Below, one piece after another: positions 25,921 through 61,252 of a stretch of DNA of 64,000 bases. The notes beneath the pieces are model-generated. The model was not told where the DNA came from, did no database searches, and saw only the letters and a program-made list of their open reading frames with translations. Source of the stretch: Rotaria sp. (taxonomy: Eukaryota); NCBI GenBank assembly GCA_905250055.1, contig CAJNOF010000004.1:951250-1015249 (forward strand), in the 5' to 3' direction. Position 1 is the first letter of the stretch. Every line of letters begins with the position of its first letter. The position numbers were made by a program, and so were the translations under genes.

Positions 25921-26418
25921 TCAAATGTTCATTTGTGCATGACATTTATGCCAGTAGGTAACAAAATGTTTGACATTATTTTTTTGAATATCATTATCAA
26001 ATGATGCTGGACGTATTTTAATCAATGAGTTTATAGCAGCTTCAGCTGAACAAGTCCATCGAACAGCTAAATAGCAAGCAATAAAAATAGCTAAAATACC
26101 TTGACCTCGTATTGATTGCATGAGTACTGGCTCGCCACGATCTCGTGCTGCTAATACAACATTAATAAAATCAATAATCTGCTCAAATGTTGGACAACAA
26201 TGTTCAGCTATTGAGAAACACACATGCTTGAATGAATTACTATGCGGTGGAATATTCATGTCAATATTCACTAATAGACGAATTCCTTGTGAGCGAAGAT
26301 ATTGCATATGAGAGTGATGAAAAGGTTGAGCACTTGCAGCGAGAACACGATCTTCGATCCAGGAAAAATAAGGTGGCATTGAATCATAAGCTGCATTACA
26401 ATTTAAATAATTATTCAT
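25921..26418 (-). CDS. DUSP23 (VHZ)-like dual-specificity phosphatase fold, single exon, catalytic Cys and Arg substituted (predicted pseudophosphatase)
   Basis: The 165-aa ORF is collinear with human DUSP23 over its whole length: PYFSWIEDRVLAASAQP, LLVNIDMNIPPHSNSF, EHCCPTFEQIIDFINVV, GEPVLMQS. The signature VHCALGFGRTG (CX5R) is replaced by LMQSIRGQGIL, so Cys becomes Ser and Arg becomes Ile. The general-acid position is D to E (SIAEHC vs RIPDFC). Confidence 0.7.
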   Translation of the reverse strand: MNNYLNCNAAYDSMPPYFSWIEDRVLAASAQPFHHSHMQYLRSQGIRLLVNIDMNIPPHSNSFKHVCFSIAEHCCPTFEQIIDFINVVLAARDRGEPVLMQSIRGQGILAIFIACYLAVRWTCSAEAAINSLIKIRPASFDNDIQKNNVKHFVTYWHKCHAQMNI

Positions 26419-27636
26419 AGTCTCTATTCAATTGACATAGAAAGAAATTTGAAGGTGCATAGCAACCAATACAAGTTTTTCTTTTATATTTCAATGTTTT
26501 TTCTGTAAAGACGACCAAAAAAATCTATAGAATAATAAATTTCCAGTCGAATGGAAAAATGAATTCACATTCTCTTCATATAAAATTTGAAAAATGAAAT
26601 TATATTTTACTATATAATATTAATAATAAAAATAACATTAAAGTTCTAATAATGAGAATATCAATGAGAATATCGTCGTTGATATCTATAGTGAAATGTA
26701 CATAAATAAAATGTTGCGATCATCTATAATGGTATTAAATATGAGCTTGATAGTTTCAAACTGACAAATTTCTAAATATCGTCAAAGTACCAACCTAAAA
26801 TATTGACCTCACGCGTTCTCATCGTACGATAATGGTCTGCAATTATGGTGAATGAATTTATTATGGCAGCGAAATGTTAATTAGCCATCAGCAGTTAAAT
26901 TCATTATAGGCTAAAGATTTTTCATCTACGAAAATTTCGACCTTATCTTTCTGGACTATTTTTAACCGACTGTTAGAAACTCGTAATGGCTAGTATAGTT
27001 TTCAGTTCATCATTTCGATAGAAAATAACATAAAAGACTCTTCTTTTTTCCAAAGAATGTGGATATGTTGGCTAGGGACGTCAGTTATGGTTTTTATTCT
27101 TAGGAACTGAGAACTCGGTGCGAACTACCACTTCTAGAAACCCGGAAACACACAGTCATTTGCCATAAAAGGAAAACATAGATATATCTAAACATCTTAG
27201 TATATTGGCAAAGACAAGGAAACAAATTCCCAAGTTGGTTTTCCTTGTTCAGTAATGAAACCCCAAGGAACGGGAATTCTGATACCCCTAGTATTGCTAT
27301 GGGTGTGGTCATCCCTATGGGTTCTACGAAAGATATATGCACACATCATACGCACACAGACACTTAACAACTCCATGTTCTGATGCATACTTTTTTTCAG
27401 CAAACAATGTGTGATATTGACAGGCATATTCATCGTTTTCCTATCTCATTCTGTTATCAATCATTCGGTCGAGATGCTTGACACTCTGATATGACAAATA
27501 TACCTCTGTTTTGAGGAAAGAGAATGTTATCACATATTAACAGAAATAGAAACGTATGGAGTATAAATGTGAGGAGAATGTGATCAGGGTTCCGCATAAT
27601 GTATTTTTATTGAAAAGCACTGTCTTTCTTCTCTGA

Positions 27637-28200
27637 CTGCTTTGTATTAGCACTAGTATCATTCGAACTCAATTACCAACATGCGATAACATTCTCGATC
27701 TCATCATTATCCTGGATTCGTTCGGCAGTATTGCGTGAGCGGACTTTGCTAGGGTAGTCGAAACGATGAAAATTGTGGCATCAATCTTGAAGATTGGATC
27801 GAAAAAAGTGATGATCGCCGTGATCAATTACTCGAGTAACGTTCAAGTGCCTATCATATTTGCTAATATGAAACTATCAACATTTTCGATTCAATGGCTC
27901 ATGAACAGGATCAGAACGATCCAACATTTGAAAGGAGGGACTGACACAGTCAAAGCTTTCCTACAAACAAAGATAGTATGTGATGCTACATGTCGATCTG
28001 TTAACGAAGGAGTTGCTCGACCAATGTTGGTCTTCACTGACGGTCAGAGCAAGGTTGCATCAGAAACAGCAAAACAGGCGGCATTTTGAGAAGCTCAATG
28101 CCAACAAACATTTATTCTGTTGGAGTTGGTGATTACAATTGAGTAAAATTAAGAGTGATTGCCTCTGATCCTTCTTATATCTTAACGATGGCTAACTATT
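27637..28200 (+). pseudogene. von Willebrand factor A (VWA) domain, isolated, disrupted by an in-frame TGA and a 3' frameshift/stop
   Basis: Reading frame DNILDLIIILDSFGSIA*ADFARVVETMKIVASILKIGSKKVMIAVINYSSNVQVPIIFANMKLSTF...HLKGGTDTVKAFLQ...RPMLVFTDGQSKVASETAKQA matches the canonical VWA profile (DIVFLLDGSGS.., RVGVVQYS, Y.GGGTNTG.AL, IVITDG.S). TGA at 27736-27738 interrupts it. The C-terminal VWA segments (IYSVGVGDYN, RVIASDPSYIL) appear in a +2 frame and then after another stop. Confidence 0.5.
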
Positions 28201-30142
28201 AACAACTAACTTTATTGATTAACCAAATTATTCACCAAACGTGTATGATGTCAGCCTTTGTCGCATCCAAAGTGAAAGTGGATACAGAAGTGCCGGCAAG
28301 TACGTATCGTTATTACCGTATAGACATGGGTATGTTTAGAGCAGGAGACAGCGCCTTCTTTGAATTGATGATAAGCTTTACTACTAAGTTCGTGATAAGT
28401 AATAGATGTATGCAATCTTCTAGAAAATATATACGAAAGGGCAACACTCGTGCATTCATTTGGACGACCAATATGAACTACAAGCTGACTCGAGTCGTGA
28501 AGTCTCGTACAGAAAGGTCGGAACAGAGCAACACTAGAGAAGTTCAATAATGAGGTGATACGATAATGAGCCAGAGTTTCAAAATATTTGTTTTGACGAT
28601 GTTCTTCATGAATGCCGTGTCACCTTGAATTCATTGAACCTGGAACACCAAAATATTACTTCAGTGTTCTCGGTGTCGATCCGATCAACGAGTTTGACTT
28701 TATACCACGAATCCTTGATATAATTAGTGGTATTGTTCGATAAACAGTTTTTGGATGTCTTCTCTTTTTATTTTGCATCTCTCTTGAATTAGATTTAAGA
28801 ACTGAAAGTATAATATGACGGTAGCATTCACTAATAAACAATTCGGCTTATTATATTTGCTAATAGCTTCTGGGTTTTCGTATGTCGATTTTTAGAAATA
28901 ATTTTTTCCATTTACCTCAGCGAAAGTTCACAATGCTATCACCATCAATCGACTTTACAAAATTTAGGGTTTCAACCATTCTTCTAACGTTCCATAAGAT
29001 CATATCTGAAAAGTTGTCGATAAAAGTATTAGATGCATCACGAGATGTAAAGATAATGGTGACAAAATCTGAATATTTCTCTTCCCAACCTCCTGTCCCA
29101 CAGTGGACAGCCTGGCGATAAAATCGATTTCAGAGATCTGAAGCTATTATGTAACTGATATGAAAGTTGCTAGGTATCTGCAATTAACTATACCTTGAAT
29201 TCTAATTAGAGACAACTAGTCATCTTGTAGCACCACCCAAAAAGTAGGTAAAATAGGCGAATATCTCTAATAGAGAGCTAGATAAGTAGAATGCATATTT
29301 CAAATTGACGTTTTAATTATATTAATTCGATATTTTTATAGTTATTTGGCGTTGTATATTTATTAAATATACTACAGGCATTTCGTTCTTTTTTAAGTTT
29401 TTATTTTTGATGTAACAGGACTAAAAGCATATTTATCATATACTAGAAGATAACGACTGCTAAATAGTGCAACTGTTTCGCCGGATTTTTCCAGGACTTT
29501 TACTTGAGTTTTAATTTACTCTCTGACAGAACGTGCCATCAGCCAATTTTGATGAATGCATATAAATGCGAATATAAGCCCTTATTGAGATACGGCGTCT
29601 CAATTATAGTCTTTTATCCACAATCATTCAAAGCAACTGGTGTAATAACGATGTATCTTTCACATCGAATTAAGTTTCCAATAGATAATACTAACTCAAA
29701 TATATAATATTTTAAAACTTCTACGTCGATTGTTTGGTTCTAAACATAATCCATAGATGAGTGAAGAGCACAGCCATTGTACTGTTGTATTCCGCAAAGA
29801 AAAATGCTCATAAGTCGAGATCCGCTCAATCGATTTTAATAATTTTTTTATTATTTTACTGATCTAAGGATGGTCATTCACTTCTGAAAAAATCAATTTC
29901 CCACGTGTTTTAGTTTCCGTGTAATCATAGCAACAGTGTTAAATACCTAGCTTCTAATGCCACCTGTCAGAAGAAAACCAATTTTTTTTTATTCCATTGC
30001 TTTTTTTTAAAATTAATTGTAGAGCTAGAGTTGTAGTATTCATCAAGAGCTTTTAGAATATGCCTTTATTTTTAGCTTCAGAGAAAGTCTTATGAATGAA
30101 AAACTGTTGATAATGAGCGTTGAGACACTTTTTCATTTTTGC

Positions 30143-30660
30143 GTAGGGCGACATTAAAATCATCGGCGTTTCGTTTGGAGAATTTTTTTTTGTTGTAATT
30201 TGGTTGGATATCAGAGAGAACTAAGATAAAAATAATTTGAGAAATAAAAGAGGTTTGTTCCATAAAGTTCGTTAGTGCAAGAATTTTATATAAGATAAAA
30301 AAAATGAATTTTGAGACGAAATGTAGGGCGAAATTTTTAATTTTGTTTTTGCTATAGCTCAATGAATACTTAACTGTTTGCAACAAAAATTTGATCGTTG
30401 TTCAGGCTCATAGAGTAGAGTAATACTCCAAAAACTCAATTGAAAATATCTCTCCGTTCTGAAGAAAATTCAATTTTACTAGAAAAACGTAGGGCGCAGA
30501 GCCCCAACCAGGCCACTAGGCCTGCCTGCCTGCCTGGGCCTGCCTGCCTGTCACAGGCACAGGCCACGATTTTTAGGCCTGGCCTGTCACAGGCAGGCCA
30601 GGCCGACCCCTTCGACAGGCCAGGCAGGCCGCCTAAAAATGCCAGGCCGCCTGGCCTGTC
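30143..30660. repeat. Left boundary block of a composite repeat locus: three GTAGGGCGA(c/a)(a/c)ttttt motifs followed by a ~165-bp GC-rich (GCCTGCC)n/(GGCAGGCC) block
   Basis: Motif copies at 30143, 30323 and 30489. At 30497-30660, ccaggccactaggcctgcctgcctgcctgggcctgcctgcctgtcacaggcacaggcc...caggcaggccaggccgacc...caggccaggcaggccgcc is about 65-70% GC, against roughly 30% for the surrounding window. Confidence 0.6.
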
Positions 30661-30796
30661 TAATTTTTCTTCGATATAAAACTTTTACCGCATAATTGGG
30701 ATTTATTGCTAGAAAAAAATTCAGTTGAGTCAGTTTTCAAGAATGATATTTGAATATAAAGAATTTGACCAATACTTGAGAATAAATATTGACGAT

Positions 30797-31025
30797 ATAC
30801 AGTGCTGTGAAAAATTATAGAATCACTAGCTTAATTTTAGGTTTTAGCTGATTCTCTACTAACTTAAATCGATGAATAAAACAAAAACACTGCTAGTGTA
30901 TGCATTCAAGTACTTGAATGCATACACTAGCAGTGTTTTTGTTTTATTCATCGATTTAAGTTAGTAGAGAATCAGCTAAAGCCTAAAATTAAGCTAGTGA
31001 TTCTATAATTTTTCACAGCACTGTA
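30797..31025. repeat. Near-perfect long palindrome (hairpin), ~113-bp arms, centre ~30911
   Basis: atacagtgctgtgaaaaattatagaatcactagcttaattttagg...cactgctagtgtatgcattcaag|tacttgaatgcatacactagcagtg...cctaaaattaagctagtgattctataatttttcacagcactgtat. Only a single mismatch was seen between the arms. Confidence 0.8.
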
Positions 31026-32756
31026 TGTAAATGATCAAATCTATTACTAATATGAAAAGGTTATTACCATAATGAAGAGGTTCAATAAGTAATGGAACCT
31101 CTACCCCTCGAAAAATTTGTTTTTTCCTACCCAAAATTAATTGAGAAGGGTTTCGAAAGTGATCTCTGGTAGAATTAGGTCTGTTAATCCTCTTTGATCT
31201 ACACTCAGGTCGTTTGAAACAATCAATTAGTGTATTATATCCCATTGTCGATGATAATTAGATGTATTTAGCCATCAATATGATAGTCGGCTATATTGAT
31301 TTTCATATAGTTTGATAGAAATATTTAAGTGTTCTGAAATGCTAGTAACACGTTAAAAGAAAGGAACTAACCATTAAAAAACGTCCAAGAAAAACTTTTC
31401 AGCGGACTTTATTTTAAGTGCATTTCTTGACTGATATTTCGCTAGTTTTGATTAGAGGAAGTAAAGTCTGGATAAAAACTAAAATCATCTATATAGACCG
31501 GCATTTAGTATTAAGTTGACTTATGTGAATTTGGAATCTGTTTATGAACTTTTTTCGTAGAAAATCACTCTAGTCCTGCTCAGAATCAAGTCGAAAAATG
31601 AGTATCGACAAAAAAGTGTATCAGTAGTTTAAGCAGACGCCATGTTGTGCTATAGTGTTATTGTGCAGCTGTAGAAATTTTTTCTCGTGCTGAAACAACT
31701 TTTCGATGTGATTCTCTTTTTACCTTAACCCTGAGGATCTGTGATGATCTATTCCACGAAAAAAATCAATGAAAATATTGAAAAGTCACAAAAGTCGTCT
31801 CAGCGTTAAATACTAATTCATAACATGACCTTAGCTTTGATCCAAATTATACTTCTTCTGATTATAATCTACGAATATATCAATTAAAGACATTCACAAT
31901 TATGTCTGGGGACAAGTTTTCATTGGACATTTTTCAGTAGTCAGTTTGCTTTTTTTCGATATGTTGTTGGCATTTCAGAGTTCTTAAAAGCTTTTATCAA
32001 ACTACACGAAAATTAGGCGAATTGACTATCATAATGATGGTTAAATCGACCTGATTATCATCAATAGTCGGATATAATATACTTATTCATTATTTTAAGT
32101 GATCCAAGACAATGTAAATAATCGCCATAGAGCCAATTTCACCGCCCATCACTTTCGAAACACTTGTGAAATGGTTTTACGTAGAAAAAACCAAATATTT
32201 CGAGCGAATCAGTTTTATTATTGGATGATTCGTCTTTTCTATTTGTCACTATTTGCTCCAGAAAATGTTTGAGTCTCAGCTAGTTCAGCTGAAGCTGAAC
32301 GTTTTCTTTGTATTAAATTTGGTAGCTACTGCACGTAGTCCTTCTCTCGATTGTAGTACTATGAATGACATTTTTGTCTGCCAGATCCATCCAAAATATT
32401 CTCGAACAAGAACAAGATTGTTTTCCTGCATATTGGTATCGTTTTATTTCTTTAGTTTTCTAGATACCAATGCTTTTCAATTCATATTAAACGTAGAGAA
32501 AAAATCCATACTGTCAACACCTTTATAATGTGCGCACCTTCCTATAGTGAACAGTTTTAGTTGGCTTTGAGTAGTTTCTGCTCGAAATCGATGACTTCCT
32601 AATGAAAGCCTCCTTATAATGATATATAAATGTTTGTTTTCTGACTTTGACCTACTACAAAAAAAGTGCCTGACGATAGCGATTTTCGTTCGACTTCTGT
32701 TCTCATATACTCTGATGTATATATCAGAAGGGAACATCTCTGTATAATGAACACTG

Positions 32757-33003
32757 AAATACACCCATATTCAAAAGGTTCCCGGACTGTTTTTATTTCA
32801 TAAAAATGAAATGAACTGCACTCATGAGTTTATATTTTGGGTGTGAGGTGTGGGTGTAGGTGTAAGTCTAAAAGAATACCAGACTTACACCTACACTCAC
32901 ACCTACACCCACACCTCACACCCAAAATATAAACTCATGAGTGTAGTTCATTTCATTTTTATGAAATAAAAACAGTCCGGGAACTTTTTGAACATGGGTG
33001 TAT
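32757..33003. repeat. Second near-perfect long palindrome (hairpin), ~115-bp arms with a (GGTGTG/CACACC)-rich core, centre ~32874
   Basis: acacccatattcaaaaggttcccggactgtttttatttcataaaaatgaaatgaactgcactcatgagtttatattttgggtgtgaggtgtgggtgtaggtgtaagtc-taaaagaatacca-gacttacacctacactcacacctacacccacacctcacacccaaaatataaactcatgagtgtagttcatttcatttttatgaaataaaaacagtccgggaac... One or two mismatches. Confidence 0.8.
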
Positions 33004-33137
33004 TTTATTGAATGTTCACATCAGGAAACTTTTATTTGTATCATCTAAATTGATTCTATTGACTTGTTGAACTTTCTACGATGATTAATGCTAAATTATA
33101 TCTTATTATTACTATGATATTTGATTTAAAAAAAGTA

Positions 33138-33322
33138 GACAGGCCTTGCCAGGCAGGCCGAGCGAAACGACAGGCAGGCAGGCCAGGCCGAAGAAAAAAG
33201 ATGACAGGCACAGGCAGGCCGGGATGGATGTAGGCCTGTCATAGGCAGGCCAGGCCTACAAAAAGTGAGCCTGGTTGGACCTCTGGTAGGGCGACATTTT
33301 TGTGATACAAAGTGTAGGGCGA
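33138..33322. repeat. Right boundary block of the composite repeat locus: GC-rich (GGCAGGCC)n block followed by two GTAGGGCGAC motifs
   Basis: At 33138-33285: gacaggccttgccaggcaggccgagcgaaacgacaggcaggcaggccaggccgaag...gacaggcacaggcaggccgggatggatgtaggcctgtcataggcaggccaggcctac. Motif copies at 33287 and 33315. The GC-block composition and the atgacaggcacaggc sub-motif are shared with 30497-30660. Confidence 0.6.
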
Positions 33323-34910
33323 CCTTTTTTGAAGCAATGATTCACTAAAACTGCTTGATATATGAAAATAACATACATGAGCTAGCTCTGTGCCAAGAAT
33401 TGTTTCATACTAACGTGTACGATTAATAAACATTTTCAGAATATTTTCTTCAAAAAATCATTATTTTGAAGTAAAAACCATTATCATTGTGTTCACTTAG
33501 TTTTATATCGTGAATCTCCACAACAACACAAGAAAGTGTTGGGAAAATATGATTTTCATGCACAATCGACATCGCTCTGTCAAACGCAACGCTTAGTCCT
33601 CTCTCATTATTAAATTTATTTTTATCGATTTTTTTGCTTAAATGGTACACTGGCTGTGCTCTTCACTCAGATAGTTTCCAACTTTGGAGCTCTTATTAGG
33701 GAACTTTGAGAACTCACCAGGGAATCTCCACAGATGCTAAAGAATTTTGACTCGAAATTTTGCATATATAATGCTCTCAATGTGACTACTTCATTCTGGA
33801 ATTTTCAGCTATTTGCATTGTTTCGATCGTGAGATATGCATATTCAAAATTTACGTAGCTGTGTGAAAAAGCAAGTTTTGTGCTGGTATTCGTATCGCAC
33901 GACAAAAGCAACAAAAAAAGCTAAAACTTTTAGTATGACATAGTTACATAAAGAACATTATTTTTCAAAGTTTCAAGCTGGAATTCAAGGTCCACTATCA
34001 AAATGACCTGAGTGAAAATTTGAGGTTTTGTTGAAAAACTCATTAAAAAATCTATTTTTTAAGTAATCTTACAAGTAAAAGGGCTTTGACAAACATAGAT
34101 AATCAATATCAAGTGCGAAGAATAAGTACACAAGATACCAAGTTTTTAGCTACTGTACTTGAAGAAATTGTTCTTGGCTTCCTTTTTCTATCCGCTGTGC
34201 ATCATATTTCTATGCCGGTTATTGCTGAACCGTTTCTATCCGTCATGTTTTTGATGGAATTTTTGCAGACGTTCCTCTTATTCTGAAATTGCCGCAGAAT
34301 CTAATTCTTCATGAACTCTTGAAACGTGCAATGATTTGCTAGACTCAGAAACACCCACACAATCTCCTTCATCTTCACCTCTTTTAAACTCTAGTGAAAA
34401 AAGATTTGAATGTAGCACATTGAAACTTGCTTTTGACATGTTTTATCAAAGAAAAATGGCATATCTAAAAAAAAATTCTAAACCGGCACAGACCGACCGG
34501 TCTTATCATCCCAACCGGTTCCAACTCTGAGTGAGACTGCCTTTAATTATATCATACTCGCTAGATATCATATAAATTTATGTATTCATGATGTATGTGT
34601 TCTCTTGAGGTAAAAATTGTATAGACTGTTTCATTATCTAAATTTTATTAAAAAAGAAACTAATTATTATTCTTTGCAACCAATAAACCATTATTATTTT
34701 AAAATAATCTATTTTGTCAAAAGACAGTTTGCAATGATACACGTAATTTTCTGCTGATTTATTATTAATTATTACAATCATAGTACAACAACGAATATGA
34801 ATAAATCAAAATAAACATCTCTTAAACAATGAAGTATGATGTAAAGCATACCAAGTAACTTTCAATACATCCTCTGATATTGGCATTATTTTTGTACGGA
34901 TAAATTTCGC

Positions 34911-43214: not shown

Positions 43215-44258
43215 ATGGGCAATTCAAGAAGTAATTATGAACGACATGAAGATGATGAGCAACAACAACGAATTGTTATTGGAAAAGAATTTCGTCTTGT
43301 TCTTGGACAACTTAATTTATCATCAAATATAATAAAACGAAAAAAAAATTTTTCAAATAATAAACAACAAAATCCTCGAAAAGTTTCTTTATCGTCATCA
43401 AACTCAACAATAACATCATCATCGTCTTTCGATAATCATCATTCATCTGTTTATGTTATTCAACTTGATATACCTACTTCTCCATTCGATTCAAATGAAC
43501 TCGATACTCATGCTTTTATTCAATATTTATTTCATCAAGATTCTTATGGTAAAGAACTTACACATATATTTAAAATTCCTATTCCTACTACAAATAATAA
43601 TAATCAAAAATCTCAATCAAAAACCTTACCAACACTTAAAATAGTTGCGATTTATTATGATCAACCAACAACAACTAATGAATTAAATATTGAAACAATT
43701 TCCTTACTCTCTGAACATGAACTTGAACAAAAATGTCAAGAATTTAACGAAAAAAATATTTTATCTATTTATACATCAAGTAGATTAATCTTTTATTCAT
43801 TTTGTTATTTTTTTTCTTTTCGATTTAATTTAGAAACACAAGCCTATATCATTTATACAAAAAAATCAATAATGCATAATAAATATAAATTAATTCGTTC
43901 AACAACTATGTCAAAAACCATACTTGAAAATTTTGAATGGCTTCATCCGTTTATTAACTATTCAAATTTAGGTTATCGTTTATGTGGAATGATTCCTATT
44001 ATTAATTCTTCGTTAAATACCTCATTTACTATTTATTGGTTATTCGAACAAACAGAAACAAATGAAACTCTTCAATATGACTATTGTATAATTGAATATC
44101 AATTAAAAACCTTCTCATTTAATAGTTGGACGTCATTACTTAATTTAATGTCAAAACAAGAATGGAAGTTAGTAGCAACATTCGATTACAATCAAAAGAA
44201 AAAACATGGAGAACAAATATATTTTCTACTTTTTTTTCAAAGAATAAAAAATTATTAG
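43215..44258 (+). CDS. N-myristoylation-motif (MGNSRS) protein of unknown function, 347-aa ORF (possible in-frame 54-nt intron at ~43786-43839)
   Basis: Long ORF starting MGNSRSNYERHEDDEQQQ (Gly2 and Ser6 fit the N-myristoylation consensus). Ser/Asn-rich linker, then a conserved-looking C-terminal region (..FEWLHPFINYSNLGYRLCGMIPIINSSLNTSFTIYWLFEQTE..YDYCIIEYQLKTFSFNSWTSLLNLMSKQEWKLVATFDY). Divergent from LSM1, whose start codon is ~455 bp upstream. Confidence 0.5.
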   Translation: MGNSRSNYERHEDDEQQQRIVIGKEFRLVLGQLNLSSNIIKRKKNFSNNKQQNPRKVSLSSSNSTITSSSSFDNHHSSVYVIQLDIPTSPFDSNELDTHAFIQYLFHQDSYGKELTHIFKIPIPTTNNNNQKSQSKTLPTLKIVAIYYDQPTTTNELNIETISLLSEHELEQKCQEFNEKNILSIYTSSRLIFYSFCYFFSFRFNLETQAYIIYTKKSIMHNKYKLIRSTTMSKTILENFEWLHPFINYSNLGYRLCGMIPIINSSLNTSFTIYWLFEQTETNETLQYDYCIIEYQLKTFSFNSWTSLLNLMSKQEWKLVATFDYNQKKKHGEQIYFLLFFQRIKNY

Positions 44259-44377: not shown

Positions 44378-47300
44378 TTTTTAATATCGACTAATATCTC
44401 GTCCAAATAAATGAGTACGAACCCAATCAAATGCAAGTAATGTTTTCGTTCGTCCAGTAAACATTTCAGTAAGATAAAATGATTTCCATAAATAAGCAGC
44501 ACTACGACCTGATATTGGTTTTAAATCAAATACATCAAGAAGTGGTTTTGTACCAGTAAAATCAGCTACTGCTGCATCACCACCAACATATGCTAATGAG
44601 CCCATATGTTTATATTGAAATGGTTTTAAATTTTGTTGTTCAAAATTATTTAATTGTAAATCAGTTAATTTATTAAGTAATCCAGCGACATAACGACCTT
44701 CTTGAGATGCAACTTGAGCTGTTGCTGGTAAGGCACGAATTTTTTGATCGGCTTTTTCAAGAGCTGAACGAAGTGCAGCAAGTGTTAGATAACCAGACTT
44801 TTCTTTATCAGCTTCTTCAAATGCTTTTTCGACACTCTTGGAAACTACTTCAAGCTAAAAAGAAAATGAGATTGAATTTTTATAGAAAAAAAAATTATAA
44901 ATATTGTTTACAAGATACTCAACGCAGAGATGAAACGAGTCTACTTTATTTTGTTTCCTGTTTTTATCATGTCGACTTATTCAAAACTCCTATTGGCCTT
45001 AAGGTTATCTGTAGAGGTCATGTAATGAAATCTTGTTGGCAGTTGACCATGTTAGATAATATTATTTATCTGAAAGCATTTTTATAATCAGTTCATTGGA
45101 TATATTGGTAAAAACTTTAAGCTTGCAATGAATAATGCGGAGACGGAACTATTACTAGTCGTCAATAGTCCAGACTAGTCACATGTTTGGTTCAACATTC
45201 GATAGAAATTGAAAAGTTATGTACATTCTTTAGCGAATAAGTGTAACGTATCTGTAGCATGCAATGTATGTATGATATTTTCCTCTTCTTACTACTTCGC
45301 ATCTTATGGATTGTCCTTATATTTTTGGCCTGACGTCGTACATCGTATTGTACTTTGTCCATCCCATATTATACTTATCTTCTCTCCTTGCTATCGTTTA
45401 CTTTCCTCTTCTTTCCTTCTCTTCCATGGAAGAGTATATAAGTGTATGCTTTGTATGTAAACGATGCTATTCTTGATAGGAAGAAACATAATAAAGCGTA
45501 GTGTCATCAGCGCTAACACTTCTTCTATCTAAAATCGTCACAATAAGTCGAAGGTATTTATAAGAATATTCGTTTAGAAAAGAGACAGTTTCTTATTTGT
45601 GAACACCGGACTGGTATGCTACGAAGTAAAAGAATGAAAATCGGAAATAGATATTTCTTAAAAATTGATACTTTAATCGATAATGTTTGCAAGTCATTTT
45701 TAATAATGAATTCTATGAAGAACGGAAACGCAATAAATGTTTCGAGAATCTTCATTATATAAGTAGTTTGTGAAGGACTGCTCCGATATAATTAATCAAA
45801 GAGGAAAAGACACTTCTAAAGAAAAAAAGAATATCAATTATTTTCTTCCGTTTTATCACTTTAGTTTTAATTATAATTCGAAACTCTTTTGACTTTTCAT
45901 CGGCTTTGTTTGAGAAAATTTCATCATAGCGTATAGTGCAAAAGTCTTTGCATCATTTTTCAATCACTAAAAGGCAATTGGTTAGAGTCGAAATCAGAGT
46001 TTTCCTTTATTTTCGAACATATGTTAAGATTTTTCTTTTAGAGTAAAACTAAACAACTATCAGTAAATTTTCTGAAAAAATCCAAAAACGTGTCTGTACA
46101 AAACAAAATAGGAGTTATGACGCAGTCTCTAATTTGTATCTTGGAACAGTTTCAACCCAACAGAGTTATAGAGCGTTGAATATAGATATTACAATAATCC
46201 AAATATTATCTATTCATTTTCACTAAAGTGCTAGGTTCTATAATCACAGACATTGGTAAAAAAGTTGTTTCTTGTAAAAATACAAAAGTTTCGAAGTGTA
46301 TCAGAAAAGTAAATAGTACACTTTGTAGAGTCAAATGAGCCATTAACAACTATTTCACATTATGAATATCATAGTTTTCATACAAAACTGAGTGAAATAG
46401 TATTCTGTACAAATACTATTGTGAAACAATTTGATGATAATTGTCCAACCTTACTTCAGAATGACAATCTGAACATATATTCGGAAAAAACAAAAAATTC
46501 TGATTCTAGTTCTAACTAACCGTTTTTAAGTAAACGGGAAAATGAGTCGATATTTTGTGTCAAGATTTTTGTGCTATACGTAATCTTTTGTCAGAAATAA
46601 TTAAACAAAAAAAAATATTTAAATACTTGTGGAAATTCTGTCATTTTCTTTTCAACTAATGTTCGAAATTGATGAACATCTAGTGCACCTCGATGTTCTG
46701 TATCGACTTCTTCGAATAATGAATGAATACGATCAACTAATTTTGGTATCTGAATTGTAGCACAATCACCAAGAGCAAATATTGAACTATCATCAACACC
46801 TTTTACACGCAAATATTGATCAGTAAGAAGACCCATACGATTGCTTTGAATATTTAAGCCAATTATTTCTCGAATTTTATTTGTTAATGGTCGAGCTTTA
46901 ATTCCAGTTGCCCAAACAACAACTGAACATGGAAGTGGTTTAAGTTCATTGGAATCTTTTAATTGTATAATGACTTCACGTTGTTTAACTTCTTTAACAA
47001 ATGTATTCATTAATACATCAATGTTTTCACGATGAAAATGTCTTTCGGTATAATCACTTATTTTTTTATCCTACACAAAAAAAAGTTAATCAAAAGACTT
47101 TAATTAATGAAACAAAACAAATCTACCAACCATCATTGATAAAATATGATCAAGTGCTTCGATTAATGTTATTTTTACATCATTAGCAACAAGACGTGGA
47201 AAATAAGTTTGCAGGTCTTCACGAACTAAATCGGCAAGCTAAAATTACATATATAACTTTAATTTAATACTATAATTTCATTTCAGCACTGAGCAAAAGT

Positions 47301-49037
47301 GTGACACAGTGTGAAACAACTCTATTAACTAGACTAGCTTCTACAACAAAATACAAAGTTTTGAATGAAGTCTCTTGAAGATATGAGACTTTTAAAAATT
47401 GCATGTTGTATACACAACGTTTAGGAAAGGTTCTACACCTTGAAAGTCTCATGTCATGAAGAGACTGCTCAAAACTTTTAAATCTTTTTTGAAACTAGTA
47501 TAGTTGAGTTCTGTATATGCAAAACGTCTTAGATCGAAATTCTAAAATACAAGTTATCCGAAAACATGGGATCCAGAAAATATCGACAGCTTACGAAGTA
47601 ATCTCTGTAGATACCAAATCGTGTTTTGATCAAGACGATGTTCATTTCATGAGAAATAGAAAAATCTAGAATAGTTTGGTTTTTTGGACCTTCGTTCTTA
47701 AGACGTCGATATTTTACTAAGTTTATCAACAAAAAAGCTATGATCCTTCAGACGATGTAAAAAATCAATATTTGACTTCTACTCTGTACGAACAAAGTTC
47801 GAAATAAGATTAGAAGATTGTGCAACTAGTATTTCCGTTCTAGAGATGTAAACATATGAATAAAATTTGCTTCTATATATGAAGGATTTTCAAACATTTC
47901 GATACTTTAACAATGAAGATCTGGAAGATCAAATCGTTTGCAACTTTTTTATGACTCATCAAATGAATACCATCTCGTTAGAAAATCCATTTGATACCTG
48001 GAGAGGTTTCTTCGTTAATTAATTCACTCTATATTTTTTTATATCCTTCCGTTGCTATTATTTCTAACAAAACAAATTGCAAATAATTTAATATTTAAGC
48101 AAAATTGATGTTGATTAACTATTTCAATATAGATTTACTTCGGCAGCAAATTCTACACCTGTTGGTCCACCTCCAACAACAACAAAATGGAGAAGACGTT
48201 TTCTTTCGGCTGGTGTTTGTGTTGGTGTCATGGCTGATTCAAAAGCGTCACTAATTGCTGAACGTATACGTCGAGCATCAAGAAGTTCCTTAAGAAAATG
48301 TGCATGTTCTTCAACACCTGGAGTATTAAATGTATTATTTTCTGATCCAATAGCAACAACAAGTATATCATATTTCATTTGAAATTCAGGTCGAACTCGA
48401 GCTAATTTAAATTAGAAACAAAGAAGAATAAATTTTTTCATAGAGAAAAATTTCTTCACCTGAATCTTTAATTATTCTTGATGATGCACCATCTATACGT
48501 CTTGATGGTACAAGTATTGCTTTAACATCATCACCACGAGATACTGTTTGTTCTCCATCACTATTACATGTTATAACTTTTGCTTTTGGATCTACATTAA
48601 CACAATGTGCTTCAATATATTTAACACGTGGTCCAATAAGTGAACGAATTGATTCAATGACTGTTCGAGTTTCAACTGTACCAACACTAACAGATGGTAA
48701 TAATGGTGTCATTAAAAAATAATTACGTGGTGATACACAAACAACTTCATATTTTTGAGTATCAATATGTTTTAAAAGTGGTACAGCACCCCAACCTGTA
48801 TAGAACTATTAAAATAAATAAAAGTAATTAAATTAATATTTCACCTGTTCCAAGTACAATAACACGTGGTTTAGCACCAATAGTCTTATCAGAATCACTC
48901 ATTTCATTAAACCATCGATAATGACGATAACTACGATAACCATAAAATGTACCGAGACCAACAACGGTAATAATGAAAAAATTTTTTAAACGTCGTTTTA
49001 ATTTTCCACCTAATTTAATAGAACCTTTTTTGAATCC
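44378..49037 (-). CDS. Type II (alternative, rotenone-insensitive-type) NADH dehydrogenase NDH-2 with an internal EF-hand, NDI1/NDE/NDB-like; ~7 exons incl. a 1.75-kb intron
   Basis: Exons (minus strand): ~48838-49037 (..GSIKLGGKLKRRLKNFFIITVVGLGTFYGYRS..KPRVIVLGTG, dinucleotide-binding GxGxxG), 48467-48815 (GWGAVPLLKHIDTQKYEVVCVSPRNYFLMTPLLPSVSVGTVETRTVIESIR...), 48143-48397 (..KYDILVVAIGSENNTFNTPGVEEHAHFLKEL..LLHFVVVGGGPTGVEFAAE, second GxGxxG), ~47137-47250 (LADLVREDLQTYFPRLVANDVKITLIEALDHILSMM), 46613-47075 (DKKISDY...VVWATGIKARPL...SIFALGDCATIQIPKLVDR..EEVDTEHRGALDVHQFRTLVEKKMTEFPQ), and 44378-44863 (LEVVSKSVEKAFEEADKEKSGYLTLAALRSALEKADQKIRALPATAQVASQEGRYVAGLLNKL...FQYKHMGSLAYVGGDAAVADF..RSAAYLWKSFYLTEMFTGRTKTLLAFDWVRTHLFGRDISRY*). 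ALGDCA, LPATAQVA.QEG.Y and the C-terminal membrane-anchor helix are NDH-2 signatures. The N-terminus needs a +1 correction in an A6 homopolymer (or an upstream exon) to reach ATGATG at ~49037. Confidence 0.8.
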
Positions 49038-52000
49038 AACATCATAGATTCAATATCTTAGAAATTATACAATACGAGTCTTTTAGGAAACACTGATTAG
49101 TTTAAATAAGTGTGCATCTTTTTTCTGTAATATACCATATGACATTTTTTAGAATGAACTTTTTTTTTTTTGAATCATATGCATCATATTTAGAGATACG
49201 ATAAATGCCAATAGTATTCAACAAAGATTATTTTCAATTTTCTTCTATTGTGGTGAACGCTAGAAAGAGTTCAAATAGTGATTCGAATAGAAAAAATGAT
49301 TTTTCAACAAGAATATGAAGAAAGAAAAATTATCATCATATTCACAAAGATAGAGATTTTAGAAAATCAAAAACCTAGTTTTTCAACATCTAGAATACGT
49401 CAATATAATTTTGTTTAGACTGCATAGAACAATAGAGTAAACTTTTTTGCGACATTTTTTTAGCTGAGATACAGTAATCTTATGCAAGCTTATAAAGTCA
49501 GTTTTTTCAATTTCCGATAGCAAAAGCATTTTTTGACCTTGAATCGAATTGCTCTATCTAAGTCATAAAACATCGTGAAGCACTCGATGATGTCTCATTT
49601 TGCAGAAAATGGTTTTTATTTCTATGTATTCTTGTTTCAAATCATTTTCTCCATAGGAGTCCCTATAGGAATCCTTTTTAACGCTTACGACAATGAAGAA
49701 AGATTGAAAATAAACAATTACAGGATTCACTGTAAATACTAGCGCCCGTCGGATTGAAAATTTTTGGACCTAGTCGAACTATACTTTGATACTCTCAATA
49801 AAATTTTCTAATCGAAATCGGATATTCTCTCCAAAGATACGACATAGTTCTTTCTGGTTTCTTTATATTCGTTAATTAGCATATCATATAAATTTTTCAG
49901 ACGAGTAGAGCCGGTCGAGTTCAAAATTTTTGGACCTACTTGAGTTCGGAACTAACCTGACAAGCTGTAGTATATACAAAACTTTGCAAAAAAATTTTAA
50001 AACTTTTAGAAAAATTTTTTATTCACTTTTTTTTTTATAGATAGAAAAATTCTATACAGTTAGATTTTTGAAAATTTCTCACGAACCAAAAGTTTCCTTG
50101 CGTGATTGTTCAGAAAACCAAGCAAGATTTCGATTAATAATAGGTTTTATTTGATTTAATTGTTTAAATGATAGATTTCGACGTGAATTTATTGTTGTTA
50201 ATTGTTGAAGAAATTGTGTTGATCGAGAAAACATAATTAATTTTGAGAAAAATTCAGATCTTTGTTTTAATACGATGGGATTTTATTTGACGCAAATAAA
50301 TCAAGAAAAAAAAGATATTGAATACTTGATATTTTCTATTTGTCTATATTTACTTCAATCAAAATACAAGTTCACCGCCATCTTTTGAAAAATGCAAAAG
50401 AAAATATATGAATGGTTAATTACATTGATTTATATGCTTCTATAAAAAAAATTCTATACAATCAACTAGTAACTTAGAGGCCAATGTTATGGTCAAATAT
50501 AGCCAAGTTGGTTAGAGTATTAAAACAATGTATATATTCATGTTCGAATCTATCTCCTAGAGTATGTTACTCAATGATGATTTTGAAATGTTTGATCAAC
50601 TTAATGAAACATTTTCAATAATTATCTGCCTTTCTTGGACTGAGAGTAACAATAATATTTGATTCTTTTTTGAAAAGAATTTATTTATTGATAGTGAATA
50701 AAAAAAAACAACTTTTGTAGACGATAAATATTATTAAAAAAATTCTATCTACAAAATATCCTTGTCTATATAAATTGACATGAACTTGTAAAATATTTTC
50801 TATTAAGAATGTTCAATTTTTTTCTGTAGTAATTTTTAATTACGAAAACAGATATTAAAAAAATTTTATTTTTAGCTATTAAATCATTATTAAAAATAAT
50901 TTAATATGAAATTTAGTTGCTTCATATTTTATGGAATCTTGTTGACAAGAAATACAAACATTTGATGAAATACAAATGATTCTATTTATCCTTTTGTAGT
51001 GTGTCCAGTTTCATAGAATTCTATTAATCTTCATTTATTTTACAAGGTCTTTAAAAAAAAAATCATCTTCGAGATAAATCTCGTGAAGAAAAAACTTATT
51101 TATTTTCATCTCTATTCAGATGAAATTTCTAGTCAAATCGAATAATGACTGTATAATGTAGTAGTATCGATGTTCGAATCTACCTTCGAGACTAGAGTCA
51201 GGGATGTCTCTTCATTAATGGCACATAACTGTTCATGCTCTCGATATATTATATATTATCAACAATTGATAACCAAACATTCGAAGATCAATATTCATCG
51301 AATGATTTATCTTAAATTGTTGAACAAACATCTATATTTTATTATTTAAAATATCAAAAACAAAAAAAAAACACCTACAGAGATACCGAAGATATTTTTT
51401 AAAAAAGAAATTGTAACACTTATTGATATGATATAATAAGTTTATTGATGATAAATACGAGAGTTTCAAAGGTATAATAAATAAAATATAAAATCATCTT
51501 AGCTATGTATTAAATCAAACACGACTAATCGAGGTTCGTGCGAGTCCTAGCTAGTCTCACCACATTATTATAAATATACAATAGTAAATAGAACCGTTCG
51601 TCATCCAGATATGCTCTAGTGAAAATTAGTAGAGTATGCTGATAATATTTGCTAGCTACATTCAACGATTATTCATGTAAGCAAACCATCTTGAAGGATA
51701 TATCAATGCTTGTTGTCTACAGTGGGCTCCCTTAGACTCCATAAAAATTCATTGCTATATGAAGCATTCATAACATTTATTGTTACCATGTGCTTCTAGC
51801 TATACGTTCGGGTTACTTACGAGGTAACCTCTTTAAGTGCTCTCTGCCGATACCAGTACTTTTTGCCTATAGATACTATATAGAATTCTTCAAGAATGTG
51901 AGTTGCTATTGAGTTTTTAGTATGTCTATATTTTTGGATCTAGATTTTCGGAAAAATCATATTGTCGAGTTTTGATTTGAAACTTTGTGCATATAGAGAA

Positions 52001-60457: not shown

Positions 60458-61252
60458 TCAATCAATTTTACCTTTTTCAACAATAACTTTTGCAGTAAGT
60501 CGTTGATGTTTATAAACACATGTCCATATACCTGTATGATATATTTGTGCATGATTAATAATTAAATGTGAAGTTAAAATATTATTAAATAATTTTTTTT
60601 TAATATGTACATCATGAGGTTTTGTTTTATTTAATTGATTTGATAAAAAATGCCATGTTATTGATGATCTATTATAATCAATATCATTCATTAAAATACT
60701 ACAATTTAATTTAATATTTGTATTTGGTTCTACATAAATATGTGTAGGATGTATAATCATTGGTATTTGTATATGTAAATGTATATATATACTAACACTT
60801 GCTTTTCGATTAGTAATTTTACATATATATGTACCTTCATCAGATAGTTTTATTTGATAAATTTCTAATGACCAAAATGAATCTTTTATTGATGTTGAAT
60901 AAAATGATATTGAATAACGTTTATCAGTTGTAAATAATTGTTTCCCAACAGCTAATGGTGATGATATAGATGTATATGGATCTATTTTAAACCACGTTAC
61001 ATGATATTCACCTAAATCACGTATATGACAAGTCAATATAGCTGTAGAAGATAAATTTAATGTTTGATTATGTGTTTCAGTAATGATTTGTGGAAATATC
61101 TTATTAGCTGTTGTTATTTGTATCATTAAAATAACTGAAGAAAGAAAAAAAAAATTAGTTTTTATTCATCAAGGAAATTCAAAGCTTTTTCTCTTGTGGG
61201 AATAACTTACGGAGAATAAATAAAAAAATATGTTTAATAATGATAAGAATAT
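60458..61252 (-). CDS. Secreted/membrane protein with two immunoglobulin-like domains (5' part; further 3' exons below 60458 not resolved)
   Basis: Exon 1 ~61203-61252: MNNILIIIKHIFLFIL (signal peptide; donor gtaagt). Exon 2 60458-61136: ..LTCHIRDLGEYHVTWFKID...LEIYQIKLSDEGTYICKI (Ig domain 1: C..W..D.G.Y.C) and ..LNCSILMNDIDYNRSSITWHF...HLIINHAQIYHTGIWTCVY (Ig domain 2). It ends ..VIVEKG with a donor-like gtaaaattg. Confidence 0.6.

What the first reader, a model, noticed from the sequence alone, without database searches (positions are those of the whole stretch)
44378..49037. Alternative (type II) NADH dehydrogenase with an EF-hand insertion in an apparently metazoan genome
The spliced product has two Rossmann GxGxxG motifs, the ALGDCA and LPATAQVA.QEGxY blocks, and the C-terminal amphipathic membrane anchor of NDI1-type NDH-2 enzymes. 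It also carries an inserted EF-hand-like loop (EEADKEKSGYLTLAALRSAL, plus EEVDTEHRGALDVHQF), as found in Ca-binding external NDE/NDB enzymes of plants, fungi and protists. NDH-2 is absent from mammals and most model animals. If this is an animal, especially a parasitic flatworm, the gene matters for respiratory-chain flexibility and as a drug target. The N-terminus looks like a mitochondrial presequence plus a TM helix.
Basis: partly seen in the sequence, partly recalled or inferred. Interest (0 to 1): 0.65.

Follow-up and report, generated by a model that had tools for sequence, protein, structure and literature searches.

The report
Algal-type alternative NADH dehydrogenase in rotifer
This is an intact gene for a single-subunit "alternative" mitochondrial NADH dehydrogenase in a bdelloid rotifer genome; its closest relatives are in red algae and cryptophytes rather than other animals, so it was probably acquired from an alga-like organism long ago, and its calcium-sensor module looks partly worn out.

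Summary
The gene has 7 exons on the minus strand (CDS 50234-44381, 645 aa). Pfam, PDB sequence search and an AlphaFold model all identify a type II NADH:quinone oxidoreductase (NDH-2, Ndi1-like), not AIFM2/FSP1. An EF-hand pair sits between the GDCA and PATAQVA motifs.

The host is a bdelloid rotifer (Rotaria, near R. sordida), not a flatworm. The neighbours are animal genes, synteny with R. sordida is conserved, and all six intron positions are shared with Adineta vaga. Contamination is therefore excluded.

In phylogeny the bdelloid proteins fall, with 100% bootstrap, in a small subfamily made of red algae, cryptophytes, Tetraselmis and one choanoflagellate. These share a unique insertion. 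Sponge and cnidarian NDH-2 lie elsewhere. Ancient horizontal acquisition is the best reading (about 0.75). Retention of an old paralogue is not excluded.

Both EF loops in this copy lack the position-12 acidic ligand, so calcium control is doubtful. Glu331 predicts NADH specificity.

This is a new member of a known kind and is of moderate interest.

The parts
44381..50234 (-). Whole coding span of the NDH-2 gene: 7 exons, 6 GT-AG introns of 1077, 49, 58, 900, 60 and 1772 nt; 645-aa product; CDS GC 33%, GC3 8.5%
   Evidence: the exon structure is identical to the annotated R. sordida and A. vaga genes
50087..50234 (-). Exon 1: ATG and residues 1-49. Presequence-like: 8 K/R, and the first acidic residue is at position 42.
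   Evidence: tblastn with the P0001 N-terminus, 90% identity; sequence; composition
48845..49009 (-). Exon 2 (residues 50-104): basic stretch, hydrophobic helix (res 57-75 = 48933-48989) and the start of the FAD Rossmann motif GTG|WGA
   Evidence: AF2 predicts a long helix at 49-91
48460..48795 (-). Exon 3 (residues 105-216): FAD-binding domain and most of the subfamily-specific insertion (res ~183-216 = 48461-48562)
   Evidence: the insertion has pLDDT <50 at 183-213
48139..48401 (-). Exon 4 (residues 217-304): conserved end of the insertion (…ASSRIIKDSARVRPEF) and the NADH Rossmann motif GGGPTG (res 293-298 = 48157-48174)
47131..47238 (-). Exon 5 (residues 305-340): β-strand 2 of the NADH fold, with Glu331 (47158-47160), the predicted NADH-versus-NADPH determinant
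46627..47070 (-). Exon 6 (residues 341-488): rest of the NADH domain, ALGDCA motif, first EF-hand (loop DTEHRGALDVHQ = 46669-46704)
44381..44854 (-). Exon 7 (residues 489-645 plus stop): second EF-hand (loop DKEKSGYLTLAA = 44774-44809), PATAQVA motif, NDH2_C membrane-association domain (res 571-641 = 44396-44608)

Best explanation
The locus is a functional nuclear gene of a bdelloid rotifer (genus Rotaria, close to R. sordida). It encodes a mitochondrial type II NAD(P)H:quinone oxidoreductase of the EF-hand-bearing NDB/NDE kind.

Shown: the 645-aa product has the complete NDH-2 architecture. This comprises an FAD Rossmann fold, an NADH Rossmann fold, a C-terminal NDH2_C membrane-association domain, and an EF-hand pair between the GDCA and PATAQVA motifs.

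Inferred mechanism:
- The basic, acid-free N-terminus (exon 1) directs import into mitochondria.
- The hydrophobic helix at residues 57-75 anchors the enzyme in the inner membrane.
- FAD takes a hydride from NADH (Glu331 predicts NADH rather than NADPH) and reduces ubiquinone without pumping protons. This bypasses complex I.
- By analogy with the EF-hand-bearing plant and fungal enzymes, the active site probably faces the intermembrane space and oxidises cytosolic NADH.
- In this copy both EF loops have lost the position-12 acidic ligand (Gln474, Ala515), and EF-1 has Arg at position 5. Calcium activation is therefore probably weak or lost, and the module may be only structural.

Origin: the gene belongs to a small NDH-2 subfamily otherwise found in red algae, cryptophytes, a prasinophyte-like green alga and one choanoflagellate. 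It is not the type found in sponges and cnidarians. The most likely history is one horizontal acquisition from an alga-like eukaryote before the bdelloid radiation. This was followed by intron gain, full compositional adjustment, and duplication.
For: Identity as NDH-2:
- Pfam Pyr_redox_2 1.3e-46, NDH2_C 2e-18, Pyr_redox 2.7e-13.
- Yeast Ndi1 2e-83 and PfNDH2 9e-77, against FSP1/AIFM2 at about 1e-5.
- AF2 model pLDDT 82.9, pTM 0.80. Foldseek gives PfNDH2 TMt 0.92 and Ndi1 0.86.
- Motifs are located. Fifty-three columns are invariant across 45 homologues, including both Rossmann motifs, GDC and TAQVA.

Host and integration:
- The best hits are all bdelloids: R. sordida 91%, R. socialis 85%, Adineta 80-84%.
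- Window neighbours are a rhodopsin-type GPCR, an Ig-domain protein and a kinase.
- About 26 kb is collinear with the R. sordida contig at 75-88% nucleotide identity.
- The A. vaga copy sits on a 20-Mb chromosome between Rpb2 and PAN2.
- The six intron positions and phases are identical in Rotaria and Adineta. GC3 is 8.5%.

Origin:
- The best non-animal hit is Rhodosorus at 685 bits. The best non-rotifer animal is Dendronephthya at 424 bits. This gives a score difference of 261 and an alien index of about 182.
- The cnidarian query does not retrieve bdelloids in its top 120 hits.
- NJ bootstrap is 100% for {bdelloids + red algae + cryptophytes + Tetraselmis + relatives}, both on 561 columns and on 426 core columns with another distance measure. 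An all-animal split gets 0%.
- The shared insertion '[AS]SSR…D[SG].[RK].RP.F' is confined to that clade, and its columns were not used for the tree.
- The subfamily collapses to about 5 representatives in a 1.84-billion-protein library.
- Bdelloid amino-acid composition is nearer to cnidarians than to red algae, so composition does not explain the grouping.

EF-hand and cofactor:
- Loop residues are tabulated.
- Glu331 aligns with the Glu of Ndi1.
Against: - No biochemical, expression or localisation data exist here. Import, orientation, cofactor use and calcium response are all inferred.
- The position of bdelloids inside the algal-type clade is weakly resolved (50-62% bootstrap), so no donor lineage can be named.
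- One clade member is from a choanoflagellate transcriptome (Salpingoeca macrocollata). This leaves room for an old holozoan paralogue.
- Only distance trees could be built; no ML or Bayesian program was available.
- Absence from monogonont, seisonid and acanthocephalan rotifers was inferred only from their absence among the listed hits. It was not shown by a direct genome search.
- Pfam still scores the EF-hands just above threshold. Some bdelloid copies (R. socialis; Didymodactylos, from the sequences) keep Glu at EF-2 position 12, so residual calcium binding cannot be excluded.
Confidence: 0.72

Rival explanations
1. Vertical inheritance of an ancient paralogue. On this view early eukaryotes, or early holozoans, had two EF-hand NDH-2 types. 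Bdelloids and one choanoflagellate kept the 'SSSR-insert' type, and every other sampled animal lost it.
For: A choanoflagellate sequence (P0038, Salpingoeca macrocollata) sits inside the clade and is about as close to bdelloids (51-56%) as to red algae (51-55%). Branching inside the clade is poorly supported. The gene is old in bdelloids: the introns are shared by Adineta and Rotaria, and it is present in Didymodactylos.
Against: No other named animal or holozoan appears among the clade members in two searches or in the exhaustive representative search. Sponge and cnidarian NDH-2 form a separate group. The scenario needs many independent losses across Metazoa. Choanoflagellates are themselves reported to hold many algal genes, with about 210 algal HGT events inferred in Monosiga (PMC4046809), and P0038 comes from a transcriptome only. 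Bdelloids are reported to have 8-9% foreign genes (same paper).
Confidence: 0.2
2. The EF-hand pair is still a working calcium switch, so the enzyme is a Ca2+-activated external NAD(P)H dehydrogenase as in plant NDB1/NDB2 and Neurospora NDE1.
For: Pfam EF-hand_1, EF-hand_6 and EF-hand_7 all pass their cut-offs, at 28-30 bits. The region folds as two helix-loop-helix units with pLDDT of about 82-90. Positions 1, 3, 5 and 6 of EF-2 (D, E, S, G) are acceptable ligands.
Against: The bidentate position-12 Glu/Asp is missing in both loops (Gln474, Ala515), and EF-1 has Arg at position 5. Eleven of the 12 bdelloid sequences aligned lack it in EF-2 (T, A or R), and 10 of 12 in EF-1, whereas red-algal and cnidarian loops are canonical. 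The precomputed Pfam annotation of the closest orthologues (P0001-P0003) lists no EF-hand at all. From general EF-hand knowledge (my recollection), loss of Glu12 normally abolishes high-affinity binding. Arabidopsis NDB4, with a degenerate motif, is reported to be Ca-independent (recollection of Geisler et al. 2007, not checked here).
Confidence: 0.25
3. The contig is from a non-animal contaminant, or the gene is an assembly artefact.
For: The protein's nearest non-rotifer relatives are algae.
Against: There are six spliceosomal introns, GC3 is 8.5% and composition matches the host. The flanking genes are a GPCR, an Ig-domain protein and a kinase. Synteny holds over 26 kb with R. sordida. The orthologue lies on a chromosome-scale A. 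vaga scaffold among housekeeping genes.
Confidence: 0.01
4. It is an AIFM2/FSP1-type or AIF-type oxidoreductase rather than an NDH-2.
For: Weak similarity over the NAD(P)H domain only (E about 1e-5 to 1e-6).
Against: The hits to Ndi1 and PfNDH2 are about 80 orders of magnitude stronger. The NDH2_C domain is present. The whole-chain fold matches NDH-2 structures at target TM-scores of 0.86-0.92.
Confidence: 0.01

Closest known systems
Red-algal and cryptophyte EF-hand NDH-2 (e.g. Porphyridium purpureum 'external alternative NAD(P)H-ubiquinone oxidoreductase B1', Rhodosorus marinus, Guillardia theta)
   Same: They share 50-58% identity over nearly the full length. They have the same domain order and the same clade-specific '[AS]SSR…RP.F' insertion. 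They share Glu at the NADH-specificity position and form one clade at 100% bootstrap.
   Different: The algal proteins have canonical EF-2 loops (…DGKL…E), whereas the rotifer loops have lost position-12 Glu. The rotifer gene has six introns, extreme AT3 codon use and a longer N-terminal extension.
Plant NDB1-4, fungal NDE1 and amoebozoan external Ca-binding NDH-2
   Same: The overall architecture is the same, with an EF-hand pair at the same site between GDCA and PATAQVA and an NDH2_C tail. Identity is about 40-44%.
   Different: They lack the SSSR insertion and fall on the other side of the 100% split. Several have Gln rather than Glu at the cofactor-specificity position.
Sponge and cnidarian NDH-2 (Oscarella, Dendronephthya, Rhopilema, Hydra, Clytia), the 'animal' NDH2 of the literature
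   Same: It is the same enzyme family and also bears EF-hands. It is an alternative entry point for electrons in animal mitochondria (PMC13286374).
   Different: Identity is only about 38-41%, there is no insertion, and they form a separate clade. Bdelloid proteins are not among the cnidarian query's top 120 hits.
Saccharomyces cerevisiae Ndi1 and Plasmodium falciparum NDH2 (solved structures 4G6G, 5JWA)
   Same: The catalytic fold is the same: both Rossmann domains, the C-terminal membrane domain, and Glu at the NADH site. E-values are 2e-83 and 9e-77, and target TM-scores are 0.86 and 0.92.
   Different: They have no EF-hand module. Ndi1 faces the matrix. No solved NDH-2 structure contains the EF-hand pair.
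Horizontally acquired alternative oxidase (AOX) in rotifers, springtails and fungus gnats
   Same: This is another non-proton-pumping respiratory bypass enzyme proposed to have entered animal genomes, rotifers included, by HGT (Weaver & McDonald, as cited in bioRxiv 10.64898/2026.06.01.729305).
   Different: It is a different enzyme, at the exit rather than the entry of the quinone pool. The donor proposed for rotifer AOX is fungal, whereas the affinity here is algal.

Membership tests
Type II NADH:quinone oxidoreductase (NDH-2, Ndi1-like) | Two dinucleotide-binding Rossmann motifs (GxGxxG/A), for FAD and NAD(P)H | tested here: met
   GTGWGA at 103-108 and GGGPTG at 293-298. Both are invariant across 45 homologues.
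Type II NADH:quinone oxidoreductase (NDH-2, Ndi1-like) | Pyr_redox_2 core plus the NDH2 C-terminal membrane-association domain | tested here: met
   PF07992 at 1.3e-46 and PF22366 at 2e-18, both far above the gathering scores.
Type II NADH:quinone oxidoreductase (NDH-2, Ndi1-like) | Sequence and fold similarity to experimentally solved NDH-2 that exceeds similarity to other flavoprotein disulfide-reductase-fold enzymes | tested here: met
   Ndi1 2e-83 and PfNDH2 9e-77, against FSP1 at about 1e-5. Foldseek target TM-scores are 0.92 and 0.86, against 0.5-0.7 for SQR and CoADR.
Type II NADH:quinone oxidoreductase (NDH-2, Ndi1-like) | Rotenone-insensitive, non-proton-pumping NADH:ubiquinone reductase activity with bound FAD | not testable with these tools
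   This needs a biochemical assay.
EF-hand-bearing external NDH-2 (plant NDB / fungal NDE type) | EF-hand pair inserted between the GDCA motif and the PATAQVA motif | tested here: met
   EF-hand_7 at residues 453-513 and EF-hand_1 at 496-522 (645-aa numbering), just above the cut-offs. The pair aligns column for column with plant, fungal, amoebozoan and cnidarian EF-hands. The model shows two helix-loop-helix units.
EF-hand-bearing external NDH-2 (plant NDB / fungal NDE type) | Canonical Ca2+-ligating loop (acidic or polar residues at positions 1, 3 and 5, Gly at 6, Glu/Asp at 12) | tested here: not met
   EF-1 is DTEHRGALDVHQ, with Arg at position 5 and Gln at 12. EF-2 is DKEKSGYLTLAA, with Ala at 12.
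EF-hand-bearing external NDH-2 (plant NDB / fungal NDE type) | Active site facing the intermembrane space; Ca2+-dependent activity | not testable with these tools
   Only an N-terminal presequence-like region and one hydrophobic helix can be seen.
Animal (sponge/cnidarian-type) NDH-2, vertically inherited | Groups phylogenetically with other metazoan NDH-2 | tested here: not met
   An all-animal split gets 0% bootstrap, and bdelloids join the algal-type clade at 100%. The reciprocal search fails.
Bdelloid horizontally acquired gene (criteria as used in the bdelloid HGT literature; thresholds recalled from memory) | Much stronger similarity to non-metazoan than to metazoan proteins (score difference of at least 30; alien index of at least 45) | tested here: met
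   685 bits (Rhodosorus) against 424 bits (Dendronephthya). The difference is 261 and the alien index about 182, computed from the E-values.
Bdelloid horizontally acquired gene (criteria as used in the bdelloid HGT literature; thresholds recalled from memory) | Phylogenetic nesting inside a non-metazoan clade | tested here: met
   Support is 100% for the subfamily. Bdelloids nest past Tetraselmis (86%) and past the cryptophytes (62%). The donor is unresolved. A shared insertion supports the same grouping.
Bdelloid horizontally acquired gene (criteria as used in the bdelloid HGT literature; thresholds recalled from memory) | Physical linkage to bona fide animal genes, and domestication (introns, host codon usage) | tested here: met
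Bdelloid horizontally acquired gene (criteria as used in the bdelloid HGT literature; thresholds recalled from memory) | Absence from sister lineages (monogononts, Seisonidea, Acanthocephala) and other animals | tested here: inconclusive
   No such taxa appear among hits above about 410 bits, but their genomes were not searched directly.
AIFM2 / FSP1 | Best match to FSP1/AIF family proteins; no NDH2_C domain | tested here: not met
   FSP1 matches at E of about 1e-5 over the NAD domain only. The NDH2_C domain is present.

The most novel reading that the evidence does not exclude
Bdelloid rotifers may have built a plant- or fungus-like branched respiratory chain entirely from foreign parts. An alga-derived external NADH dehydrogenase (this gene) would join the AOX that others have proposed as horizontally acquired. 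After transfer, the enzyme would have been rewired in three ways. Calcium control was lost through decay of the EF-hand ligands. Duplication produced an NADH form (Glu331) and a possible NADPH form (the Gln paralogue that lost the insertion). The bypass then helps bdelloids survive desiccation and rehydration by keeping NAD(P)H oxidation going without complex I and limiting reactive oxygen.
Probability: 0.2. Interest if true: 0.6.

Novelty: new member of a known kind. Interest (0 to 1): 0.38.

Why it matters
NDH-2 enzymes let mitochondria oxidise NADH without complex I. They are studied as stress-tolerance factors in invertebrates and as gene-therapy tools for complex I deficiency.

Two results add a concrete case of a core bioenergetic enzyme being grafted into an animal respiratory chain. 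First, the bdelloid enzyme is of a different, alga-like lineage from the sponge and cnidarian enzyme. Second, it is probably a domesticated foreign gene. This parallels recent claims for AOX.

It also offers a natural experiment on EF-hand decay in a calcium-regulated respiratory enzyme. That said, bdelloids are already known for thousands of foreign genes, and the orthologues are already annotated as NADH:ubiquinone reductase in public databases. The finding therefore refines known biology rather than overturning it.

Tried and rejected
The species is therefore inferred only from 91% protein identity and 75-88% nucleotide identity to R. sordida.
- I looked for an in-frame ATG near 49037 and found none. 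The ORF there opens after a TGA and is intronic.
- Seven literature searches found no paper on bdelloid NDH-2. The key review (McDonald & Gospodaryov 2019) is not held. Prior mention in that review, or in supplementary HGT lists, cannot be excluded.
- The unnamed 50%-identity hits P0028 and P0030 are intronless genes on short Logan contigs (GC 36-40%). Their organism could not be identified.
- Rfam and tRNA scans of the whole window found nothing.
- No ML or Bayesian tree program was available. I used NJ with two distance measures and two column sets instead.
- Comparing intron positions with cnidarian or algal genes was considered and dropped. Both HGT and ancient paralogy predict few shared positions.
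- The contamination and AIFM2/FSP1 hypotheses were tested and rejected.

Full report
**1. What is in the sequence.**

The window is AT-rich (GC 22-35%). The feature lies on the minus strand. Three-frame translation and splice-site inspection gave six exons between 49009 and 44381, with GT-AG introns and a continuous frame. That product had no start codon. The open frame upstream of 49009 (…IYDVGFKKGSIKL) begins after a TGA and holds no in-frame ATG.

Bdelloid homologues carry about 45 further N-terminal residues. tblastn with that segment found the missing first exon at 50234-50087, at 90% identity. It has a clean donor (TTTG|GTTCGT) and joins the acceptor at 49011-49010.

The full model has 7 exons and encodes 645 aa:
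- Exons: 50234-50087, 49009-48845, 48795-48460, 48401-48139, 47238-47131, 47070-46627 and 44854-44381.
- Introns: 1077, 49, 58, 900, 60 and 1772 nt.
- Composition: CDS GC 33% and GC3 8.5%.

The model is independently validated. The annotated R. sordida and A. vaga genes, reconstructed exactly from their loci, have the same exon lengths (148/165/336/263/108/444/474 nt) and the same intron phases. The gene is single-copy in the window.

**2. What the protein is.**

- Pfam finds Pyr_redox_2 (1.3e-46), NDH2_C (2e-18), Pyr_redox (2.7e-13) and three EF-hand models at 28-30 bits, just above their cut-offs.
- Against PDB sequences the best matches are yeast Ndi1 (2e-83) and P. falciparum NDH2 (9e-77). 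FSP1/AIFM2 reach only about 1e-5, over the NAD domain.
- An AlphaFold2 model built on a 45-sequence alignment is confident (pLDDT 82.9, pTM 0.80).
- Foldseek places the model on PfNDH2 (target TM 0.92) and Ndi1 (0.86), ahead of bacterial NDH-2 and far ahead of SQR and CoADR folds.

The protein is an NDH-2. The AIFM2/FSP1 alternative is rejected.

**3. Whose genome it is.**

All top hits are bdelloid rotifers: Rotaria sordida 91%, R. socialis 85%, Adineta spp. 80-84%, and Didymodactylos in fragmentary gene models.

The window's other ORFs are animal-type. They include a rhodopsin-family GPCR, an Ig-domain protein, a kinase fusion and a Cyclin_D1_bind protein.

The R. sordida orthologue lies on a 291-kb contig with the same neighbours. 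The window aligns collinearly with that contig over about 26 kb at 75-88% nucleotide identity, through introns and intergenic DNA.

In A. vaga the orthologue sits on a 20-Mb chromosome between RNA polymerase II Rpb2 and PAN2.

The host is thus a Rotaria lineage close to R. sordida, not a flatworm, and contamination is excluded.

**4. Where the gene came from.**

After the bdelloids, the next-best hits are not animals.
- Red algae (Rhodosorus, Erythrolobus, Porphyridium, Purpureofilum), cryptophytes (Guillardia, Baffinella; Rhodomonas) and Tetraselmis score 50-58% identity and about 550-690 bits.
- Scores then fall to at most 456 bits for the plant NDB, amoebozoan, fungal and cnidarian proteins.
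- The best non-rotifer animal is Dendronephthya at 424 bits, against Rhodosorus at 685 bits. This gives a score difference of 261 and an alien index of about 182. Both are far above the thresholds I recall from the bdelloid HGT literature (30 and 45).
- The reciprocal test agrees. A cnidarian query retrieves cnidarians and then plants, with no bdelloid in its top 120.

An NJ tree was built from 50 sequences rooted on yeast Ndi1, using 561 columns and 200 bootstraps.
- Support is 100% for a clade of bdelloids, red algae, cryptophytes, Tetraselmis and several unnamed sequences.
- Bdelloid monophyly also has 100% support.
- Sponge (Oscarella) and cnidarian sequences lie in the other half with plants, fungi and amoebozoans.
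- Repeating the analysis on 426 catalytic-core columns, without the N-terminus or the EF-hand module and with a score-based distance, again gives 100%. An all-animal split gets 0%.
- Bdelloid amino-acid composition is nearer to cnidarians than to red algae, so compositional attraction cannot explain the result.

A rare-change character supports the same grouping. An insertion ending in a conserved '[AS]SSR…D[SG].[RK].RP.F' motif is present in all members of this clade. It is absent from sponge, cnidarian, plant, fungal, amoebozoan and heterolobosean sequences and from yeast Ndi1. Its columns were excluded from the tree by the gap filter.

In a library of 1.84 billion representatives the subfamily collapses to about five entries above 430 bits. 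It is therefore small and patchily distributed.

Within the clade the bdelloids branch after Tetraselmis (86%) and after the cryptophytes (62%). Their nearest partner is unresolved (50%), so no donor can be named.

**5. The caveat.**

One clade member (P0038) is from the transcriptome of the choanoflagellate Salpingoeca macrocollata. Searching with it found no other named holozoan, and it is about equally distant from bdelloids and red algae.

This keeps alive the rival that an old paralogue survived only in bdelloids and one choanoflagellate. That scenario needs many independent losses. Choanoflagellates are themselves reported to carry many algal genes, with about 210 algal transfer events inferred in Monosiga (PMC4046809). 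The same paper cites 8-9% foreign genes in A. ricciae.

I put horizontal acquisition at about 0.75 and the ancient paralogue at about 0.2.

Whatever the route, the gene is old in bdelloids.
- All six introns are shared by Rotaria and Adineta.
- Codon usage is fully host-like.
- The gene has duplicated into two paralogue groups plus ohnologue pairs.

**6. How it most likely works.**

Shown: the domain set, the motifs and the fold.

Inferred from family knowledge:
- The N-terminus has 8 Lys/Arg, and its first acidic residue is at position 42. It is a mitochondrial presequence.
- Residues 57-75 form a hydrophobic helix that anchors the protein in the inner membrane.
- FAD accepts a hydride from NADH and reduces ubiquinone without proton translocation. 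The NDH2_C helices provide membrane and quinone access.
- The residue ending β-strand 2 of the NAD(P)H fold is Glu331 (…KITLIEALDH…), as in Ndi1. By my recollection of the plant and bacterial literature, this predicts NADH rather than NADPH use.
- The second bdelloid paralogue group has Gln there and has lost the insertion. It may use NADPH.

The EF-hand pair sits at the same site as in all NDB-like enzymes, so it is a family trait and not an insertion special to this gene. In this copy the loops are DTEHRGALDVHQ (Arg at position 5, Gln at 12) and DKEKSGYLTLAA (Ala at 12).

Among the 12 bdelloid sequences aligned, 11 lack an acidic residue at position 12 of EF-2, and 10 lack one in EF-1. Red-algal and cnidarian loops are canonical. 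The closest orthologues have no precomputed EF-hand annotation at all.

I therefore predict weak or absent calcium regulation. A working calcium switch is given about 0.25. Orientation towards the intermembrane space is inferred only by analogy with EF-hand-bearing plant and fungal enzymes.

**7. Comparison with what is known, and novelty.**

NDH-2 in invertebrates is established (PMC13286374, citing McDonald & Gospodaryov 2019). The bdelloid orthologues are already labelled 'NADH:ubiquinone reductase (non-electrogenic)' or 'EF-hand domain-containing protein' in public databases.

Horizontal acquisition of the companion enzyme AOX has been proposed for rotifers (Weaver & McDonald, as cited in bioRxiv 10.64898/2026.06.01.729305).

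I found no paper describing bdelloid NDH-2 or its algal affinity. The key review and the supplementary HGT lists could not be checked.

The finding is a new member of a known kind. It is a known enzyme class, in an animal group known for foreign genes. The modestly new points are its membership of a distinct alga-type subfamily, its decayed EF-hands, and a possible NADH/NADPH paralogue split. Interest is moderate (0.38).

Noticed in passing
window 22155-23684 (+): One uninterrupted 509-aa ORF joins a cytidylyltransferase-like (NMNAT-type, PF01467, 1.2e-14) domain to a protein kinase domain (PF07714, 4.4e-35). This is an unusual domain combination.
   Followed up: no
window 25921-26418 (-), within 24000-34000: A 165-aa ORF matches dual-specificity phosphatase families of the 'Swiss Army Knife' and polymorphic-toxin type (PF22784 2.3e-7, PF22785 1.7e-5). 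It lies in the only GC-richer stretch of the window (0.31-0.35, against 0.22-0.30 elsewhere). It may be another foreign-derived gene.
   Followed up: no
window 43215-44258 (+): An intronless 347-aa ORF is convergent with the NDH-2 gene, with the stop codons about 120 nt apart. It has only a sub-threshold DUF4177 hit. A syntenic 331-aa gene occupies the same position in R. sordida.
   Followed up: partly
window 47369-47466 (intron 3 of the NDH-2 gene); L001 8031-8286 and 12700-12948: An inverted repeat with 27-nt arms (85% complementary, 44 nt apart) sits inside a stretch of about 250 nt that matches two places in the R. sordida locus. This suggests a MITE-like element. It is single-copy in this window.
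   Followed up: partly
related proteins P0022 (A. vaga) and P0024 (A. ricciae): A second bdelloid NDH-2 paralogue group has lost the SSSR insertion. It has Gln instead of Glu at the NAD(P)H-specificity position (ITLIQS versus ITLIEA) and keeps Glu at EF-1 position 12. It may be an NADPH-using form.
   Followed up: partly
related protein P0038 (EukProt EP00052, Salpingoeca macrocollata): A single choanoflagellate transcriptome sequence belongs to the otherwise algal-plus-bdelloid NDH-2 subfamily. Whether it is genomic, a separate transfer or prey contamination is unknown.
   Followed up: partly
window 9047-10219 (+) and 60458-61126 (-): An intronless rhodopsin-family GPCR ORF (390 aa) and a two-Ig-domain ORF (222 aa) are present. 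GPCR and Ig-domain genes also flank the NDH-2 orthologue in A. vaga, which may reflect deeper conserved linkage.
   Followed up: no
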